Below, in pieces: positions 6,958 to 19,080 of a stretch of 64,000 bases of DNA. The translations under genes and the position numbers were made by a program. Source of the stretch: an uncultured Gammaproteobacteria bacterium (GTDB taxonomy: Bacteria; Patescibacteriota; Patescibacteriia; UBA1558; GWA2-36-10). How positions within the stretch are numbered: position 1 is the first letter of the stretch; each line of letters starts with the position of its first letter. The stretch is from assembly GCA_964638415.1 (NCBI GenBank), contig CAZWYP010000001.1, forward strand, positions 148,650 through 212,649. Reading direction: 5' to 3'. The notes beneath the pieces were generated by a model. It had not been told where the DNA came from, ran no database searches, and saw only the letters and a list, made by a program, of their open reading frames with translations.

Positions 6958-7557
6958 CTACCAGCGGTAGCCAACGCCGAGAATTAATTTCTCGGTATTG
7001 CCTTCCCCGGAGCCAAAGGTGTACCACGGCTTCAGGTAGAATTGTCCCAAGTTGATCAGCGCGGTCGGTCCGATATCCACTTGGGAAGAAAATCCTGAAG
7101 TGAATTCATGGTAAACCTGTTCTCCGATGCCCACCTTAACCAGTAGATGTGCCTGGTAAGTGACGTCCATCCACTGGTAGGCCCAGTCAGGCATGCTGCC
7201 GGCACCGGTCCAGGCGGCGTATTGGTAGAGGCTGAAGAAGCCGAACTTGCCGCGTCCACCGCCGACATAGACTTCGGGACTGAAACCATCATAGTCTCCG
7301 CTCAAGATGCCGATGGCCGGAGTGACATTGAGACGCCTGTCGCCATAGGGTTTGCCGGCGAAGATGCCGAAGGTGTTGGGTGCGTCGAAGTCGTAGCGCG
7401 CTTCAAAGAAGAGGTTTTCCGTGACTTGGGTGTACCAGAAGATATTGGTCTTCTGGCCGTCGACGTTCTTGTAGAAATACGAGAGGTCGTTCAGGGCCCA
7501 GACTTGGCTGGATAAGGCGATCAGGCTGATCAGGGTGGTCAAAAAGAGCTTCAACAT
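6958..7557 (-). CDS. Small outer-membrane-like beta-barrel protein (signal peptide, alternating amphipathic strands, C-terminal ...GVGYRW)
   Basis: ORF 6958-7629; likely start is ATG at 7555-7557 after AAAGGAAG; C-terminal aromatic residue; GC clearly above the local background. Confidence 0.55.
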   Translation of the reverse strand: MLKLFLTTLISLIALSSQVWALNDLSYFYKNVDGQKTNIFWYTQVTENLFFEARYDFDAPNTFGIFAGKPYGDRRLNVTPAIGILSGDYDGFSPEVYVGGGRGKFGFFSLYQYAAWTGAGSMPDWAYQWMDVTYQAHLLVKVGIGEQVYHEFTSGFSSQVDIGPTALINLGQFYLKPWYTFGSGEGNTEKLILGVGYRW

Positions 7558-7721
7558 GGAGACTTCCTTTGGTTGGGAAATATGGTAGATAGATTGAAAG
7601 AAGAACAAAGTAATATGATATACTATCATATTATTGCTATTTTGTCAAGGTATATGTGTTTCCTTTATTTTTTTAAGATCTTCATGATATAGTTAATAAA
7701 GCTAATTTTTAGGATAAAATT

Positions 7722-9131
7722 ATGAAAAAGAATATTTTAGCAATTTTAGTTTTAATTATTATTGCTTTAGCAATGGTTTTCTTTTTGCGGCAGAATAACA
7801 CTTCTTTGCCGGAAGCAATATTAAAAGAAGAAATAAAACTCTATGCTTATTTAGCAGAAGAAGTTAATACCGGACAATTAAGCGTGTCTATTCCCTTTAA
7901 CAAACAGTTAGCAGAAGATTACCAAGTGGATTTAGCTGTAGATTGGAACAATGACGGTCAGTGGTCAGCTGATGAATGGGTATGGAAAGATTTAGCCGTG
8001 CATTTAGTGCAGGGCTTGCGGAATAATTTCTATTTCGCCGATGAGCAGAATAGGTTGGCAGTAAATCAGGAAGTGGGAATTAAAATTAATTTAAAGAAAG
8101 TTGGTAACAATGATTTGTTAGAAACTTTAGAGCAGAAAGTCAAAGTGGAGAAAATAGAATTAGAGCAGATTTTTGGTTTTAATGTTCCGGGGGCGGCTGA
8201 AGATTTGAAGCGAGGTATTGGTTTACCACAAGCTATTACCCAAATTGCTTATGCGCAGGATAATGGCGAGATTTTCCGGGAAGCAATGACACCAGATTTA
8301 GCTCAAGGGAGAATGGAATGTGCAGCAGTATCCACTGCTAATAATTTAATGTCTTTAGCTGGGCAATATGACCGCTTAGCAGATTTGCCGGAATTTACCG
8401 GTGAACTGATTGAAGAATTAAAGAAAGATATGAAATTCAATAATGGCATTTTATTACCCAATATGGTACCGGGCAAGAATGCTTTTGTTGCCCGCCACAA
8501 TTTACCAATTGCCAGCGAACTTAAAACTGCTCCGACTTTGGAGCAGATCAGACAGGCTTTGGCTTCAGGAGCAGCGGTAGAATTAAGCATGAATTTTACT
8601 CGTTCACGCAGTGGGCGAGCTGCTACCGGCCACGTGGTAACTTTAGTGGGTGTTTCTGGTAACCAGGTTTTTGTCCATGATTCCGGCACGCCGGAAGGCA
8701 TGGATGCTTTAGATATTACCAGTACAGTGAGAACTAAGGTAGGAGATTTTGTTGGAGTAAATTATCCCTTGTGGGATGGAGTAGCTTATATTGACGGTAT
8801 TGTCATCCAGAATTGGACAGAAGCGCAACGAGCTAATGAATCATACACTGATGCTGGCGAGCAAGCCAGCGAAGTGGAAATGTTGGTAATTAACGGGTCA
8901 TATTTTCCCAAAAGCCAGTTTAAAGTAGCCGGTGCTGACGCTTGCGATGCTAGCCATTACCATTCCCATCAGCCCGTCTGGGGTTTAAGAGCTAAAGACT
9001 CAACAGAAGTGATTTCTTTAATGGATCCTCTACCTAATGCTTGTGGTTTTGGCAAGATATCGGAAGTGCCGGTAGAAAAGATTACCATTAGCTTTGAACA
9101 GTCAACAGCTTTATTACAGTATTTACCTTAG
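7722..9131 (+). CDS. Hypothetical secreted/membrane-anchored protein, 469 aa
   Basis: N-terminal TM/signal MKKNILAILVLIIIALAMVFF; no recognisable motif. Confidence 0.55.
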   Translation: MKKNILAILVLIIIALAMVFFLRQNNTSLPEAILKEEIKLYAYLAEEVNTGQLSVSIPFNKQLAEDYQVDLAVDWNNDGQWSADEWVWKDLAVHLVQGLRNNFYFADEQNRLAVNQEVGIKINLKKVGNNDLLETLEQKVKVEKIELEQIFGFNVPGAAEDLKRGIGLPQAITQIAYAQDNGEIFREAMTPDLAQGRMECAAVSTANNLMSLAGQYDRLADLPEFTGELIEELKKDMKFNNGILLPNMVPGKNAFVARHNLPIASELKTAPTLEQIRQALASGAAVELSMNFTRSRSGRAATGHVVTLVGVSGNQVFVHDSGTPEGMDALDITSTVRTKVGDFVGVNYPLWDGVAYIDGIVIQNWTEAQRANESYTDAGEQASEVEMLVINGSYFPKSQFKVAGADACDASHYHSHQPVWGLRAKDSTEVISLMDPLPNACGFGKISEVPVEKITISFEQSTALLQYLP

Positions 9132-9145
9132 GAGTTAATTAAATA

Positions 9146-9176
9146 AAAAACCGGCAATTAGCCGGTTTTTTAGGGC
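9146..9176 (+). terminator. Intrinsic terminator CCGGCAATTAGCCGG followed by TTTTTT
   Basis: Stem-loop and T-run directly downstream of the stop codon at 9131. Confidence 0.75.
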
Positions 9177-9293
9177 TTAAGTGATTTATATTTCGGCTAA
9201 CGGGCGTGCGTATGCGAAGTCGTGATTGAGCAAATATGATAAAATTTATGAAATCATATTTGCGAAAGGACGATTTGCGTGAGCGGACTAAAA

Positions 9294-9815
9294 CTATTCT
9301 TTATCTTTTTTATTTAGCTTGTCTTGTTTAGCTAATGCGAAAAATATTTTTATAAATACCGGTATAGTAACTAGTGTTTTAAGAATATTTTTTCGCTTTT
9401 TTATTTTATTTCTTTTTCCATCCAAGACTTCTTTTATTCTATCATATTGTTTTTCTAATCCTTTATGAACCCATAATCCATCGGTGGCTAATCCACCACC
9501 CATACCGCCAGCAATACCTTGTCCAGGTTCCATTTCTTCAAAAAATATTCTTGCCCCGTCAGGATCTTCATAGTCTATATCTTTAAGAAGATTTTCCAAA
9601 GCTTTATAATCACATTTTATTTGCTGCACAGGTGCTGAAAGATAAATCTGGCCACCATAATCACCCTGCATAATCATATATGCATTAGAATGTTTTTTAG
9701 CTTCCTCGAAGTTTTTAAAAGCTTTGTATTTAATACCTTGGCTTTCAGACATTAATTTTCTGACACCACTTTCATGTTCTGGTATTATTATTTCTTTGAT
9801 TTCTTGTTCTTTCAT
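9294..9815 (-). CDS. Hypothetical protein with a Gly-rich loop (GIAGGMGGGL) and a C-terminal TM helix; its start and stop codons abut an 11-bp perfect inverted repeat
   Basis: ORF track; TM segment ILKTLVTIPVFIKIFFALA. Confidence 0.5.
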   Translation of the reverse strand: MKEQEIKEIIIPEHESGVRKLMSESQGIKYKAFKNFEEAKKHSNAYMIMQGDYGGQIYLSAPVQQIKCDYKALENLLKDIDYEDPDGARIFFEEMEPGQGIAGGMGGGLATDGLWVHKGLEKQYDRIKEVLDGKRNKIKKRKNILKTLVTIPVFIKIFFALAKQDKLNKKDKE

Positions 9816-9862
9816 ATTTTTAGTCCGCGAACCGCATACGCGGTGTTAGGCGCTGTTATTTT

Positions 9863-10327
9863 TTATTCCCACTCCTTTTGCATTTTTTCCATTAATTCAT
9901 TTTCTGTAAATTTGAATGGTGTAAAACAGAGCTGAAGTGTCCGACCCTCTTTGGCAATTTTTTTTATTTCAGAATAACTTTTTTCTTTTTTGAGTAATTG
10001 GTGAATAATTTTATTTCTATTATTGTTAAATTTTTTAATTGCTTCATATCCATCCTTATTAATGCAGGATAATAGAAAGGCAATTTCAATATAATCATTA
10101 AAATATTTTATAAAATTGCCTTGATTATTTTGAAGAATTTTGATTTTTTCTATAAAATCATCTGAGGATTTTTCTTGGCTAATTAATTTGTTGGCTATTA
10201 AGCTTTTTATATGTAGCTCTAGGTAATTATGTACAAGCGAAATCACCTCAATATAGCATTTTTGTTTAACAGCTCTAGAAATTACTTCGTCAAAATTCTT
10301 CTCGTCTATTTGAAAGTCATTTTCCAT
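9863..10327 (-). CDS. Hypothetical all-alpha cytoplasmic protein with an Rx4H motif (RNKIIH), HEPN-like
   Basis: ORF track; motif lies in the C-terminal third, as in HepT/HEPN RNases; bracketed by GTTAGGCGC/GCGCCTAAC. Confidence 0.45.
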   Translation of the reverse strand: MENDFQIDEKNFDEVISRAVKQKCYIEVISLVHNYLELHIKSLIANKLISQEKSSDDFIEKIKILQNNQGNFIKYFNDYIEIAFLLSCINKDGYEAIKKFNNNRNKIIHQLLKKEKSYSEIKKIAKEGRTLQLCFTPFKFTENELMEKMQKEWE

Positions 10328-10391
10328 AATTGTTATTTAAATTTGAAATAATGGCGCCTAACCACTGTGTTGACGAACCTATTGACATCAT

Positions 10392-10405
10392 AGCCAATAT
10401 TGGCT
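10392..10405. promoter_or_regulatory. Perfect 14-bp palindrome AGCCAATATTGGCT in the divergent region between the small genes and the recombinase; overlaps a TTGACA -35 box (10382-10387)
   Basis: Read directly from the sequence. Confidence 0.5.
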
Positions 10406-10440
10406 AAAAAGTAAATAATAATCATTAATCACAATTAGTT

Positions 10441-11307
10441 ATGAAGAAAAGCGATAACACAGGCGGAAAGCCTGTAGATTTGGCTAATATCAGCAATCAG
10501 CATCCCTTGCGTTCTTTAGCTCAAGAATTAGTAATTAGGGGATTTTCTCGGCGGACAATTAAGGGTTATTTGGCATATAATCAGTCTTTCCTTAATTTTA
10601 TTGGTAAGTCAGCTAAGGAAGTTAATCAGCAGGATCTTAAGGATTATTTGTTATATCTAAAGGGTAGAAAATATAGTAATACTTCCTTGAATAATGTTAT
10701 TTCAGCCTTGAAGTTTTATTACCAGCAGATTCTTAAGAGGAAGCTGTTTTTTAATATACAGCGTCCTAGGCGGGAAAAATTTTTGCCGGTAGTTTTATCT
10801 AAAGAAGAGATTTATGCTTTACTGGCTGCTATAGTTAACTCTAAGCATAAGCTAATAATTTCTTTGGCTTACAGCGCTGGTTTGCGGGTTAGTGAAGTTG
10901 TTAATTTAAAAATTAAAGATATTGATTTTCCTAGTAGCAGTATTACTGTGCGTGGAGGCAAGGGGAATAAAGATAGGGTTACTGTCTTTTCTGAAAAGTT
11001 AAAAACGGAATTGCTAAATTTAATTTCTAACAGAGATAAAAATGATTTTGTGTTTATTAGCCAGTCAGGGGAAAAATTGACCATTCGCACTCTGCAGAAG
11101 ATTTTTGCCAGTGCGCTTATTCGTTCTGGCATTGCTAAAGCTGCGACTTTTCATTCTTTGCGCCATAGCTTTGCTACGCATTTGCTGGAAAATGGTACGA
11201 ACATCAGATACATTCAGGAGTTATTGGGTCATCAGAATATTAAAACCACCCAAGTGTATACTCAGGTGGCTAGTTGGAGGTTGAAGAATATTATTAGTCC
11301 TTTATAA
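10441..11307 (+). CDS. Tyrosine site-specific recombinase (Xer/phage-integrase family)
   Basis: SAM-like N-terminal domain; catalytic ...AGLRVSE... (Arg), HSLRHSFATHLL (His-x-x-Arg), LLGHQNIKTTQVYTQV (Tyr); 288 aa with no IntI-specific insertion. Confidence 0.85.
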   Translation: MKKSDNTGGKPVDLANISNQHPLRSLAQELVIRGFSRRTIKGYLAYNQSFLNFIGKSAKEVNQQDLKDYLLYLKGRKYSNTSLNNVISALKFYYQQILKRKLFFNIQRPRREKFLPVVLSKEEIYALLAAIVNSKHKLIISLAYSAGLRVSEVVNLKIKDIDFPSSSITVRGGKGNKDRVTVFSEKLKTELLNLISNRDKNDFVFISQSGEKLTIRTLQKIFASALIRSGIAKAATFHSLRHSFATHLLENGTNIRYIQELLGHQNIKTTQVYTQVASWRLKNIISPL

Positions 11308-11310
11308 AGC

Positions 11311-17820: not shown

Positions 17821-19080
17821 TTATAATTCTGGATAAAGGGGGAATCGCTGCATTAAGTCTATAATCTTTTTCTTGCTATCTGCTGTTGCTTGCTTGTTTT
17901 TTAGGGTAGCAATAATTACTTCAGCAATAATTTCCATGTCCACTTCTTTTAGTCCGCGGGTAGTTAAAGCAGGTGTGCCTAGGCGGATGCCGGATGGATC
18001 CATTGGTTTGCGCTGGTCAAAAGGTATCATGTTTTTATTGGTATAAACATAAACTTCATCCAGTAATTTTTCCGCCTCTTTGCCGGATAATCCTAAAGGA
18101 GTGACGTCTAGCAGCAGCAGATGATTGTCAGTTCCTTGGCTAATAATCCTAATGCCTGCTGCTTTGAATTTATTTTCCAAAACTTTAGCATTAGCTAAAA
18201 CTTGTTTTTGGTAATCAACAAATTCAGGCTGTAAAGCTTCCTGGAAAGCAATAGCTTTAGCGGCGATAATATGCTCTAATGGTCCGCCTTGCATGCCGGG
18301 AAAAACCGCAGAATCTATTTTCTGGGCTAAGGTTTTTTCTCCGGGATTAATGCGATCTTCAATTTTGGAAAGGATCATCGCTCCCCGCGGTCCACGTAGA
18401 GTTTTGTGAGTGGTGGTTGTTACCACGTCAGCATAGGGAAGAGGATCCGGGTGTAATTTGGCGGCAACTAGGCCGGCAATATGCGCCATGTCTACCATTA
18501 GGTAAGCGCCGACTTCATCAGCGATTTTTTTGAAAGCGGCAAAGTCTATGGCGCGGGAATAAGCGGAAGCACCGGCTAAGATTATTTTCGGCTTATGCAT
18601 CATGGCCTGGTTGCGCACTTCATCAAGGTCAATCATCTCAGTTTTTTGGTCAACACCATAGCTGACAAAATGGTAGAATTTGCCGGAGAAATTGACTGGA
18701 TGGCCGTGAGTCAAATGCCCGCCATGAGCTAGAGAAAAACCCAAAATAGTATCTCCCAAATTACAGAGAGCAAAATATGCTTCCATATTAGCTTGAGAGC
18801 CGGCATGAGGCTGGACATTGGCGTGTTCAGCGCCGAATAATTTTTTGGCCCGTTCTATAGCTAAGCTTTCTACCTGGTCAATAAACTCATTACCGCCATA
18901 GTATCTTTTGTTAGGATAGCCTTCAGCATATTTATTGGTTAAGACTGAGCCGGCGGCGGCTAAGACTGCCGGAGAGACAAAGTTTTCCGAAGCAATCATT
19001 TCCGCGCCTTGACGCTGGCGCTCTAATTCCTGACGGATAATTGCATTAATTTGCGGATCTGTTTTTTCTAATATTTTCAT
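17821..19080 (-). CDS. glyA: Serine hydroxymethyltransferase GlyA
   Basis: [16 protein letters not shown]-binding [13 protein letters not shown] motifs; 419 aa. Confidence 0.92.

What the first reader, a model, noticed from the sequence alone, without database searches (positions are those of the whole stretch)
9180..11310. Tyrosine-recombinase module: two opposite-strand cassette-like genes, each bracketed exactly by inverted repeats that include integron-core-like GTTAGGC/GCCTAAC
A Xer/phage-type tyrosine recombinase (10441-11307, +) is transcribed divergently from two small minus-strand genes. On the cassette (minus) strand the layout reads: GTTAGGC, then gene A (10327 to 9863), then GCCTAAC, CCGCGTATGCGG, GCGGACTAAAA. 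Gene B (9815 to 9294) follows, then TTTTAGTCCGC, CGCATACGC, GTTAGCC. Gene B's start and stop codons abut an 11-bp perfect inverted repeat, GCGGACTAAAA (9283-9293) and TTTTAGTCCGC (9818-9828). Gene A sits between GTTAGGCGC (9845-9853) and GCGCCTAAC (10354-10362). A further inverted pair, GCGTATGCG (9208-9216) and CGCATACGC (9833-9841), lies outside these, and GGCTAAC is at 9195-9201. GTTAGGC is the canonical integron core site (GTTRRRY) and GCCTAAC is its inverse core (RYYYAAC). The divergent recombinase/cassette layout is integron-like. However, the recombinase lacks the IntI-specific insertion and the repeat spacing is not that of a canonical attC. This may be a non-classical cassette-capture or Xer-mobilised (pdif-like) module. 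The module lies between an intrinsic terminator (9146-9176) and the 3' end of ychF.
Basis: partly seen in the sequence, partly recalled or inferred. Interest (0 to 1): 0.78.

Follow-up and report, generated by a model that had tools for sequence, protein, structure and literature searches.

The report
Integron-like cassette platform in Parcubacteria
A candidate-phyla-radiation bacterium carries what looks and behaves like an integron (recombinase, insertion site, promoter, mobile gene cassette ending in a folded recombination site), but its recombinase is a plain Xer-type enzyme without the extra helix thought to be essential for integrons, and a whole second gene sits inside the hairpin of the recombination site.

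Summary
The repeats are real, at the stated coordinates, local and non-random (0 of 5000 shuffles give both main pairs).

Read on the minus strand, the locus has five parts:
- a recombinase gene, divergently transcribed
- a conserved ~75-bp attI-like region with a cassette-ward promoter-like site
- the junction G|TTAGGC
- gene A, which is HEPN-like
- an attC-type site: R'' GCCTAAC, 3 nt, L'' GCGTATGCG, GTTC, stem-loop 1, TCAC, stem-loop 2, L' CGCATACGC, 6 nt, R' GTTAGCC

Gene B fills the apical loop of stem-loop 1. That is why the repeat spacing looked non-canonical.

The same attC architecture, with compensatory changes in L''/L', occurs in other Patescibacteria arrays next to 58-73 % identical recombinases. 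A 73 % relative (L181) has a 100 % identical attI core, then an unrelated first gene after GTTAGG. The gene A and gene B families occur as cassettes in other arrays; gene B relatives also sit beside a genuine IntI.

The recombinase lacks the IntI-specific insert and scores as XerA-type. The locus therefore works like an integron but fails the integrase membership criterion.

I found no description of this in the searchable literature. Verdict: new variant of a known kind, high interest. Recombination itself is inferred, not shown.

The parts
10441..11307 (+). Tyrosine recombinase, 288 aa, Xer type, with no IntI-specific insert. Putative integrase of the platform.
   Evidence: Pfam Phage_integrase 7.8e-46 plus SAM-like N domain. 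NCBIfam NF040815 XerA-type 254 bits (cutoff 220). TIGR02249 integron integrase 209 bits, below its cutoff of 265, and split into two stretches. In an alignment with a genuine IntI from L108, about 45 residues between KGxxDR and HxLRH are missing, while the catalytic R, K, H, R, H and Y are kept.
10363..10440 (-). attI-like region. It holds the conserved motifs CTGATTAAT and GTCAATAGGTTCGTCAAC (10369-10386), a 16-bp palindrome TAGCCAATATTGGCTA (10391-10406), and a cassette-ward promoter-like site (-35 TTTACT, -10 TATGAT; 10415 to 10387).
   Evidence: Conserved upstream of five recombinase genes of 58-73 % identity (A3). 100 % identical to L181 over 10376-10415, whereas the coding region is ~72 % identical and identity beyond the junction is 40-57 %. 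The motif is unique in the window and lies upstream of the recombinase in relatives L181-L192 (in L178 only as a divergent variant that the search pattern misses). Promoter scan.
10356..10362 (-). Core GTTAGGC at the attI/cassette junction. The cassette presumably starts at G|TTAGGC.
   Evidence: The window and L181 share sequence up to GTTAGG and then diverge into unrelated genes. Gene A relatives start at (G)|TTATATGCCATCACTC in two different flanks.
10346..10362 (.). 5' arm of the 17-nt inverted repeat closing gene A (cassette start). Its partner is 9845-9861.
   Evidence: I7, 88 %. The same kind of bracket is found in L097 (25 nt) and L183 (34 and 27 nt).
9863..10327 (-). Gene A, 154 aa, HEPN-like cassette gene. 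GC 26 % against 40 % for the window.
   Evidence: Weak Pfam HEPN_Apea hit (E 0.006). R104-x4-H109 is invariant in the three known members. Only two homologs exist, one inside a cassette array (L097) and one as a solitary cassette after a NUDIX gene (L096). GC.
9195..9851 (-). attC-type site of the gene A cassette, 657 nt including gene B. Components on the minus strand: R'' GCCTAAC 9851-9845; spacer ACC; L'' GCGTATGCG 9841-9833; GTTC; stem-loop 1 arms 9828-9818 and 9293-9283; TCACGC; stem-loop 2 9276-9217; L' CGCATACGC 9216-9208; spacer ACGCCC; R' GTTAGCC 9201-9195; then GAAAT.
   Evidence: Homologous segment by segment to attCs of L183, L097 and L178. R and L helices are 86 % paired, with 9 of 16 pairs changed on both sides; slid controls give at most 45 %. 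Both strands of the full 666 nt keep the R, L, SL1 and SL2 pairings in the MFE fold, and the centroid folds keep L, SL1 and SL2, with R retained only on the + strand. With gene B excised, folding gives -31.4 and -36.8 kcal/mol, z -5.2 and -7.2.
9294..9815 (-). Gene B, 173 aa, function unknown, lying in the apical loop of stem-loop 1 of the attC. GC 31 %.
   Evidence: ORF. Family of ~20 clusters plus ~90 metagenome loci, several in cassettes, including beside a genuine IntI. No Pfam, NCBIfam or PADLOC hit. AF2 pLDDT 88.9 with no PDB fold match.
9144..9172 (.). Bidirectional terminator-like hairpin that ends the array and the convergent 469-aa gene.
   Evidence: inverted repeat I20.

Best explanation
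The locus is a small integron-type gene-capture platform native to Patescibacteria. A Xer-type tyrosine recombinase is transcribed divergently from a conserved attI-like site. That site also carries an outward promoter-like element. The first cassette starts at G|TTAGGC and encodes gene A. It ends in a structured attC-type site in which R''/R' and L''/L' pair around two internal hairpins. Gene B lies in the loop of the first internal hairpin, so A and B would move as one ~1.16-kb unit.

By analogy with integrons, the attC half-sites would come together by folding of one DNA strand, and the recombinase would exchange strands at the R box with attI or another attC.

Shown here:
- the anatomy of the locus
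- homology and covariation of the attC family
- conservation of attI, with the break in homology at the core
- presence of both gene families in other cassette arrays
- absence of the IntI insert from the recombinase

Inferred:
- that this recombinase is the enzyme that acts on these sites
- that the substrate is single-stranded
- the exact crossover point
- whether an attC that carries a 520-nt loop is still active
For: Conserved site next to the recombinase
- The attI-like region is conserved in five loci whose recombinases are 58-73 % identical.
- Against L181 it is 100 % identical over 40 nt, versus ~72 % in the gene. Homology ends at GTTAGG, and the first genes are unrelated.

attC family
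- The architecture CATC-R''-3nt-L''(9)-GTTC-SL1-TCACCC-SL2-L'-6nt-R'-GAAAT is shared by the window, L183 (two sites), L097 (three) and L178 (two).
- The L helix is 94 % paired, with 6 of 9 pairs changed on both sides. The whole-structure covariation score is 0.454 versus 0.185 for shuffles, reached by 0 of 500.
- A covariance model built from six sites finds further sites in L082, L083 and L178 at E 5e-11 to 1e-3, and none elsewhere in the window.
- The attI core matches the attC cores within each locus: GTTAGG-type in the window, L181 and L178; GTTRTRY in L183 and L097.

Cassette mobility
- Gene A relatives start at TTATATGCC in two different flanks.
- The gene B relative P0007 sits in a unit that is 100 % identical in at least three flanks, bounded at ..AA|C.
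- Other gene B relatives have GTTA.../...TAAC brackets, and one lies beside a genuine IntI with a 70-nt attC.

Other support
- Folding keeps the attC skeleton both with and without gene B.
- An ORF in stem-loop 1 recurs in L178, bracketed by a 35-nt inverted repeat, and probably in L181.
- Genes A and B have foreign base composition: 26 % and 31 % GC against 40 %.
Against: - No recombination product was seen. The only other assembly of this genome is identical, so there is no strain-level presence/absence evidence.
- The nearest ychF relatives (69-72 %) are too distant to serve as empty sites.
- The recombinase lacks the IntI insert. The literature holds that insert necessary for attC recombination, because it docks the extrahelical bases (PMC9668308, PMC7790495).
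- The L stem here has no bulged bases.
- The recombinase family is extremely abundant and conserved in Patescibacteria: 7246 hits at E<1e-30. It may therefore be a housekeeping Xer whose neighbourhood is exploited by cassettes.
- Only five recombinase loci could be inspected.
- An attC with a 520-nt loop may be inactive. In the window and in L178 it is the last site of the array, and the R' of L178 is degenerate.
Confidence: 0.72

Rival explanations
1. Xer/dif module exploited by hitch-hikers. Here the recombinase is the cell's chromosome-dimer resolvase. The conserved site upstream of its gene is its dif-like site, as in XerS/difSL and XerH/difH. Genes A and B are IMEX-like elements that integrated there using hairpin mimics of the site, as CTX phage does with XerCD.
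For: - NCBIfam places the protein in the XerA-type equivalog above its cutoff.
- The family is near-universal and highly conserved in Patescibacteria.
- No second tyrosine recombinase lies in the 64-kb window.
- Single-recombinase Xer systems with the site next to the gene, and CTX hairpin integration, are established (own knowledge; the CTX scenario is discussed in PMC7790495).
Against: - GC skew is positive and steady across the whole window, with no switch at 10 kb, so the site is not at a replication terminus.
- The region is not a 28-31-bp 11-6-11 palindrome. Only xxxxAAC-N6-GTTGAxx is recognisable.
- The flanking elements are promoter-oriented, single-gene cassettes with a shared attC family. 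That is integron behaviour rather than the behaviour of phage- or island-type IMEXs.
- This rival overlaps with the best explanation rather than excluding it.
Confidence: 0.15
2. Invertible-DNA switch (inverton or shufflon type). In this reading the recombinase flips gene A and gene B between their flanking inverted repeats to turn them on or off relative to the promoter in the intergenic region.
For: - Each gene is exactly enclosed by an inverted repeat and lies next to a tyrosine recombinase.
- There are weak profile hits to tyrosine-type DNA invertases: 62-70 bits.
Against: - The invertase hits are far below their cutoffs of 221-222 bits.
- The repeats around A and B differ from each other.
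- The related locus L181 has a different gene after the same junction, which is replacement rather than inversion.
- The repeat system is homologous to attC sites of multi-cassette arrays, in which genes keep one orientation.
- Two independent assemblies show the same orientation.
Confidence: 0.04
3. RNA-level or incidental structure. Here the repeats are mRNA processing or stability stems, or terminator fragments, and the recombinase is an unrelated neighbour.
For: - The stems would also form in a transcript running from the outward promoter.
- The start codon of gene B lies in a stem.
- attC hairpins are known to influence the translation of cassettes (PMC8876359).
Against: - No Rfam family matches.
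- The conserved GTTRRRY/RYYYAAC cores sit exactly where homology between mobile units begins and ends.
- The attI core is conserved beyond the level of the coding sequence.
- The third base pair of stem-loop 2 is A.C on the sense strand but G.T on the complementary strand in all six sites, and the non-transcribed-sense strand folds better.
Confidence: 0.04

Closest known systems
Integrons (IntI / attI / Pc / attC cassettes), especially sedentary chromosomal integrons and the archaeal integrons of Ghaly et al. 2022 (PMC9668308)
   Same: - The recombinase gene is divergent from a conserved insertion site that carries an outward promoter-like element.
- Cassettes begin at G|TTRRRY.
- Each cassette ends in an imperfect-palindrome site with R''(RYYYAAC)-L''...L'-R'(GTTRRRY), unpaired spacers and a variable middle.
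- attCs within a lineage resemble each other.
- Cassette genes are foreign in composition and are found in other arrays.
- Gene B relatives also ride in classical IntI integrons.
   Different: - The recombinase has no IntI-specific (I2) insert and scores as XerA-type.
- The L stem has no extrahelical bases. The asymmetry lies instead in 3-nt versus 6-nt spacers.
- The attC middle has a conserved two-hairpin layout with fixed linkers (GTTC, TCACCC, AAAT..ACTT).
- The R pairing extends 15-35 nt outward, so that every ORF is closed by a long inverted repeat.
- A full-length ORF can occupy a hairpin loop inside the attC.
- IntegronFinder-type criteria would call these arrays integrase-less (CALIN).
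Xer/dif systems and IMEXs (XerS/difSL, XerH/difH, archaeal XerA; CTX phage hairpin integration)
   Same: - The recombinase is of Xer type.
- Its target lies immediately upstream of its own gene, as in XerS and XerH.
- Use of a folded single strand by a Xer enzyme has a precedent in CTX.
   Different: - The site is not at a skew-defined terminus and is not a recognisable 28-31-bp dif.
- The inserted units are promoterless single-gene cassettes with a dedicated attC family, not phages or islands.
pdif modules of Acinetobacter plasmids
   Same: Small gene modules associated with Xer-type recombination and bracketed by inverted sites.
   Different: pdif modules are flanked by complete double-stranded XerC-6-XerD sites in inverted orientation. 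Here the flanks are half-sites (R''L'' and L'R') that form a site only when folded together.
Elements that insert into attC sites (group IIC-attC introns, IS1111-attC)
   Same: A large insertion inside an attC that leaves the R and L boxes intact.
   Different: Gene B has no reverse transcriptase, ribozyme or transposase. The insert is essentially just the ORF, placed exactly in a hairpin loop, and the same arrangement recurs with unrelated ORFs in L178 and probably in L181, whose contig ends before the 3' arm.

Membership tests
Integron | Integrase is a tyrosine recombinase with the IntI-specific additional domain (I2 helix, ~35 aa near patch III) | tested here: not met
   There are 57 aa between KGNKDR and HSLRHSFA. 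About 45 residues present in the genuine IntI of L108 are absent. TIGR02249 scores 209 bits, below its cutoff of 265, and is split in two; NF011946 scores 144, below 435.
Integron | Catalytically competent tyrosine recombinase adjacent to the array | tested here: met
   Pfam PF00589 7.8e-46. The R, K, H-x-x-R, H and Y columns are invariant in A5. The gene starts 78 nt from the cassette junction.
Integron | attI: conserved primary insertion site next to intI, ending in a GTTRRRY core where cassettes join | tested here: met
   A3 alignment of five loci. 100 % identity to L181 up to GTTAGG, then unrelated genes. The first cassette's inverted-repeat bracket begins exactly at the core in the window and in L183.
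Integron | attC: R''(RYYYAAC)-L''...L'-R'(GTTRRRY) imperfect palindrome that folds as a hairpin | tested here: met
   GCCTAAC-ACC-GCGTATGCG ... CGCATACGC-ACGCCC-GTTAGCC. Covariation in six homologous sites. Folds with z -5.2 and -7.2. The third purine of R' is C.
Integron | Extrahelical bases in the L box that set strand choice | tested here: not met
   The L stem is 9 contiguous pairs without a bulge in every site folded. Asymmetry is present only as 3-nt versus 6-nt spacers and as an A.C / G.T pair in stem-loop 2.
   657 nt in the window because gene B sits in stem-loop 1; ~110 nt without it. Family members are ~108-150 nt.
Integron | Cassettes are mobile: the same gene in different arrays or flanks, with boundaries at the core | tested here: met
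   Gene A family in L097 (array) and L096 (solitary), with shared sequence starting at TTATATGCC. Gene B family in many cassette contexts. This is not shown for this genome itself.
Integron | Pc promoter directing cassette transcription | tested here: inconclusive
   Consensus match TTTACT-17-TATGAT pointing into gene A. Its position is conserved in L181, L182 and L183. There are no expression data.
Integron | Integrase-dependent excision and insertion through single-stranded attC | not testable with these tools
   Needs a recombination assay or junction reads.
Xer/dif chromosome-dimer resolution | Recombinase belongs to a Xer family | tested here: met
   NF040815 recomb_XerA_Arch scores 254 bits, above its cutoff of 220. 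XerC and XerD profiles score ~197 bits, below their cutoffs.
Xer/dif chromosome-dimer resolution | Target site at the replication terminus (GC-skew switch); 28-31-bp two-arm site | tested here: not met
   GC skew is positive throughout the 64 kb and cumulative skew is monotonic. No 11-6-11 palindrome at 10356-10386.
pdif module | Gene flanked by two complete XerC-6-XerD sites in inverted orientation | tested here: not met
   The flanks are unlike halves (R''L'' versus L'R', or stem arms). No complete site lies on either side.
Invertible DNA switch | Invertase-family recombinase and both orientations present in a population | tested here: not met
   Invertase profiles score 62-70 bits, below their cutoffs of 221-222. 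Two assemblies are identical in orientation. Population reads were not available.

The most novel reading that the evidence does not exclude
Across Patescibacteria, and perhaps DPANN archaea, whose arrays mostly lack an IntI, a Xer-type recombinase without the I2 helix serves as the integrase of hairpin-cassette arrays placed next to its own gene. That would make it a living counterpart of the hypothetical Xer-like ancestor of integron integrases. In the same system, ORFs carried inside attC hairpin loops and closed by long inverted repeats would reflect how new cassettes are made or paired.
Probability: 0.45. Interest if true: 0.9.

Novelty: new variant of a known kind. Interest (0 to 1): 0.8.

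Why it matters
Integron integrases are currently defined by the I2 insert. That insert is held to be what enabled recombination of folded single-stranded attC sites. The field notes a lack of evolutionary intermediates and proposes a Xer-like ancestor that handled hairpin-forming IMEXs (PMC7790495). IntegronFinder-type surveys discard recombinases without the insert and label such arrays integrase-less (PMC4889954, PMC9668308).

A conserved pairing of a Xer-type recombinase, an attI-like site and a dedicated attC family in an entire superphylum would have four consequences:
- It would make the origin-of-integrons question directly testable with extant proteins.
- It could explain many orphan attC arrays.
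- It would reveal a gene-exchange route in organisms with tiny genomes.
- Through the ORF-in-hairpin arrangement, it would touch the unsolved problem of how cassettes arise.

Tried and rejected
- Split structured RNA or intron with ORFs in its loops: rejected. Nothing in Rfam at gathering or E<=10 thresholds, and no tRNA or tmRNA nearby.
- Genome-wide REP/MITE-type repeat: rejected. The motifs are local.
- Empty-site comparison through ychF neighbours in GTDB genomes: uninformative. The best relatives are only 69-72 % identical and are not syntenic on that side.
- Exact-protein look-up of the recombinase from a DNA reference failed. It worked through protein ids.
- A naive pattern scan for R''/L''/L'/R' was useless: 829 real versus 686 shuffled hits. 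It was replaced by a covariance model.
- Other gene B contexts (L090, L091, L095) show no bracket, so the bracket belongs to cassette contexts and not to the gene.
- Function of gene B: no Pfam, NCBIfam or PADLOC hit, and no PDB fold match despite a confident model.
- Viral contigs hold no close relative of the recombinase. The ychF loci hold none either.
- Source names for the proteins: none on record.
- Contig breaks 108-161 nt upstream of the L183-type recombinase were considered as evidence of strain variability. All those contigs carry the same first cassette and end in or near its 34-nt inverted repeat, so they are more likely assembly artefacts of the repeat.
- Literature searches for integrons or attC in Patescibacteria/CPR, Xer-type integron integrases, and ORFs within attC found no description. 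Only short ORFs in attC are mentioned, in PMC8876359. The library excludes most subscription journals.
Full report
OBSERVATION

- The 11-nt perfect pair GCGGACTAAAA (9283-9293) / TTTTAGTCCGC (9818-9828) extends to 15 nt with one mismatch. It touches the stop and start codons of gene B (9294-9815, minus strand).
- GTTAGGCGC (9845-9853) / GCGCCTAAC (10354-10362) extends to 17 nt with two mismatches. It encloses gene A (9863-10327, minus strand).
- GCGTATGCG (9208-9216) / CGCATACGC (9833-9841) and GGCTAAC (9195-9201) complete the set.

I shuffled the three intergenic segments 5000 times. The 11-nt pair arose in 5 shuffles, the 9-nt pair in 116, and both together in none. The motifs are not dispersed repeats. 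The one extra exact 11-mer lies in the glyA coding sequence.

The window is a Parcubacteria/Patescibacteria genome. The closest ychF relatives are Parcubacteria MAGs. The window is base-for-base identical to an independent Logan assembly of run SRR10064596.

THE PROTEINS

The 288-aa recombinase has the Phage_integrase catalytic domain and a SAM-like N-terminal domain. It passes the NCBIfam XerA-type model (254 bits, cutoff 220). It fails the integron-integrase models: TIGR02249 gives 209 bits against a cutoff of 265, matched in two pieces. Aligned with a genuine IntI that I found next to a gene B relative (L108), it lacks about 45 residues between KGxxDR and HxLRH. That is the position of the IntI-specific insert. 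All catalytic residues are kept.

The family is very abundant and well conserved in Patescibacteria: 7246 hits at E<1e-30, with 55-76 % identity among the best 120.

Gene A is a small helical protein with a weak HEPN_Apea hit and an invariant R-x4-H motif. Gene B belongs to an uncharacterised ~140-aa family with no profile hit. Its model is confident (pLDDT 88.9) but matches no solved fold. Genes A and B are 26 % and 31 % GC in a 40 % GC window.

WHAT RELATED SEQUENCES SHOW

1. Gene A has only two homologs.
   - One (L097) lies inside a textbook cassette array. An upstream site ends ...CGGCGAC|GTTATAT. The cassette starts TTATATGCCATCACTC. After the stop codon come GAGTGACGGCACATAAC (R''), AC, GGTGTATACG (L''), about 100 nt, CGTATACACC (L'), GGAAC and GTTATAC (R').
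   - The other (L096) has the same TTATATGCCATCACTC start directly after a NUDIX gene, preceded by unrelated sequence. This pins the left cassette boundary at (G)|TT.
2. Gene B relatives occur in many cassette contexts.
   - Several have GTTA.../...TAAC brackets (L120, L125, L132, L139, L143, L149, L150).
   - One lies beside a genuine IntI with a 70-nt attC (L108/L112).
   - A marine unit (P0007) is 100 % identical in at least three different flanks, with boundaries at ..AA|C.
3. Four further recombinase loci were retrieved: L181 (73 % identical), L178 (67 %), L182 (65 %) and L183 (58 %).
   - All have a conserved region upstream of the recombinase start: CTGATTAAT, a -35/-10-like pair pointing away from the recombinase, GTCAAT.GGT.CG, and then a GTTA core about 80 nt from the ATG.
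   - Against L181 this region is 100 % identical over 10376-10415, although the gene is only ~72 % identical at the DNA level. Identity falls to background right after GTTAGG. The genes that follow are unrelated.
   - This is the behaviour expected of an attI with different first cassettes.

THE attC FAMILY

L183 carries two clean cassettes (NUDIX, SnoaL-like) whose 3' sites, together with those of L097 and L178, share one architecture:

CATC-R''-3 nt-L''(9)-GTTC-[stem-loop 1]-TCACCC-[stem-loop 2, AAAT...ACTT]-L'-6 nt-R'-GAAAT.

The window sequence fits this segment by segment:

CAGC-GCCTAAC-ACC-GCGTATGCG-GTTC-[GCGGACTAAAA ... TTTTAGTCCGC]-TCACGC-[AAATCGT...ACGACTT]-CGCATACGC-ACGCCC-GTTAGCC-GAAAT

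Structure tests:
- Across six sites the R and L helices are 86 % paired, against 72 % in shuffles (0 of 500 reach the observed value) and at most 45 % when the partner is slid.
- The L helix is 94 % paired, with 6 of 9 pairs changed on both sides. The sample is small and one 3' end (L178) is degenerate.
- A covariance model built from these six sites finds further sites in L082, L083 and L178 at E 5e-11 to 1e-3. It finds no other site in the 64-kb window.
- Folded as single-stranded DNA, both strands of the full 666-nt stretch keep the R, L, SL1 and SL2 pairings in the minimum-energy structure; the centroid structures keep L, SL1 and SL2, and R only on the + strand.
- With gene B cut out, the site folds at -31.4 kcal/mol (gene-sense strand) and -36.8 kcal/mol (complementary strand), with z -5.2 and -7.2.

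An ORF in stem-loop 1 is not unique to the window. In L178 a 270-aa gene sits at the same place between GTTC and TCACC, closed by a 35-nt inverted repeat. In L181 the second gene starts right after GCCTAAC-AC-AGGATTGCCG-ATTC-GCGGGCGAG..., but the contig ends before the 3' arm.

More generally, every ORF in these arrays is closed by a 15-35-nt inverted repeat that begins at R'/R'': window 17 nt, L097 25 nt, L183 34 and 27 nt.

HOW IT MOST LIKELY WORKS

The layout is that of an integron: recombinase, attI with an outward promoter, and a cassette joined at G|TTRRRY and ending in an attC whose halves can only form a recombinase site by folding together.

I therefore infer three things. The recombinase exchanges strands between a folded attC and attI (or a second attC). 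Gene A is expressed from the promoter-like site in the attI region. Genes A and B would be excised together as a ~1.16-kb unit running from 10361 to 9201.

Several steps are inferred only: catalysis by this enzyme, use of single-stranded DNA, the exact crossover point, and activity of an attC with a 520-nt loop. Two details hint at strand-specific single-strand function. The third pair of stem-loop 2 is A.C on the sense strand and G.T on the complementary strand in all six sites. The complementary strand also folds better.

Within each locus the attI core matches the attC cores: GTTAGG-type in the window, L181 and L178; GTTRTRY in L183 and L097. This supports a cognate enzyme-site system.

RIVALS

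- Xer/dif module colonised by IMEX-like elements. This is the serious alternative and partly overlaps with the best explanation. The protein is XerA-type and near-universal in the phylum. However, GC skew shows no terminus here, and the site is not dif-like.
- Inversion switch. Contradicted by gene replacement in L181 and by homology to arrays with a fixed gene orientation.
- RNA structure or chance. Contradicted by the coincidence of the cores with the boundaries of mobile units, by conservation of attI above the coding level, and by the absence of any Rfam match.

COMPARISON WITH WHAT IS KNOWN

The locus works like an integron. As for membership, it meets four criteria: attI, attC cores and pairing, cassette mobility across arrays, and an adjacent competent tyrosine recombinase.

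It fails three criteria: the IntI-specific insert, the extrahelical bases, and attC length.

The literature I could read treats the insert as necessary and as the innovation that created integron integrases (PMC9668308; PMC7790495). A genome survey concluded that the few insert-less recombinases found near attC sites are not integron integrases (PMC4889954). Seven full-text searches found nothing on integrons or attC arrays in Patescibacteria, on Xer-type integron integrases, or on full-length genes inside attC sites. The library lacks most subscription journals, so prior description cannot be excluded.

VERDICT

This is a new variant of a known kind.

Interest is high (0.8). It bears directly on how integron integrases arose from Xer-type enzymes and on how cassettes are built. 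It also suggests that many integrase-less attC arrays may have an unrecognised integrase.

The main weakness is that no recombination product has been observed, and only five recombinase loci could be inspected.

Noticed in passing
window 9294-9815 (-); alignment A2; loci L098-L177: Gene B belongs to an uncharacterised ~140-aa family (IPEHES..EGDYGGQIYLS..GGMGGG..LWVH). The family recurs as an integron-cassette passenger in soil, groundwater and marine metagenomes and in DPANN MAGs. Its AF2 model is confident but matches no PDB fold. The window copy alone has a ~30-aa hydrophobic C-terminal extension that reaches exactly to the stem.
   Followed up: partly
L082 3330-4180, L083, L084, L085, L086: A ~740-bp unit carrying the gene B relative P0007 is 100 % identical in at least three different flanks. 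The covariance model places the neighbouring attCs on the opposite strand, so the ORF is antisense to the array. The ORF is enclosed by three nested inverted repeats.
   Followed up: partly
L178 2581-3589 (-): A 270-aa gene sits in stem-loop 1 of the last attC of another Patescibacteria array and is closed by a 35-nt inverted repeat. The R' of that site is degenerate. Both ORF-bearing stems (here and in the window) contain ACTAAA/TTTAGT, one base away from an R box.
   Followed up: partly
L165 996-3348: A Xer-type recombinase 41 % identical to the window's lies co-directionally upstream of a GNAT gene. The cassette-like start of that gene is GTTATGTGAAAT. It is followed by a weak attC-like hit (E 0.098) and then a frameshifted gene B relative. 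This may be a second lineage of the same kind of platform.
   Followed up: no
window 10391-10406: Perfect 16-bp palindrome TAGCCAATATTGGCTA between the -35 and -10 of the cassette-ward promoter-like site, identical in L181. It could be an operator or a recombinase accessory site.
   Followed up: no
L185-L189, L192 (contig ends): Six independent assemblies of the L183-type locus end 108-161 nt upstream of the recombinase start, in or just past the 34-nt inverted repeat of the first cassette. This is probably an assembly effect of the repeat, which means such platforms are likely to be under-assembled in metagenomes.
   Followed up: partly
window 17947-17957: A third exact copy of GCGGACTAAAA lies inside the serine hydroxymethyltransferase (glyA) coding sequence. 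It is a chance match.
   Followed up: yes
window 6958-7629 (-) and 7722-9131 (+): The two genes flanking the array on the far side (223 aa, and 469 aa with an N-terminal hydrophobic segment) are not assigned to any family: the 469-aa protein has no Pfam hit and the 223-aa protein has only a '-' in the precomputed Pfam column. The 469-aa gene converges on the array at a shared terminator.
   Followed up: no
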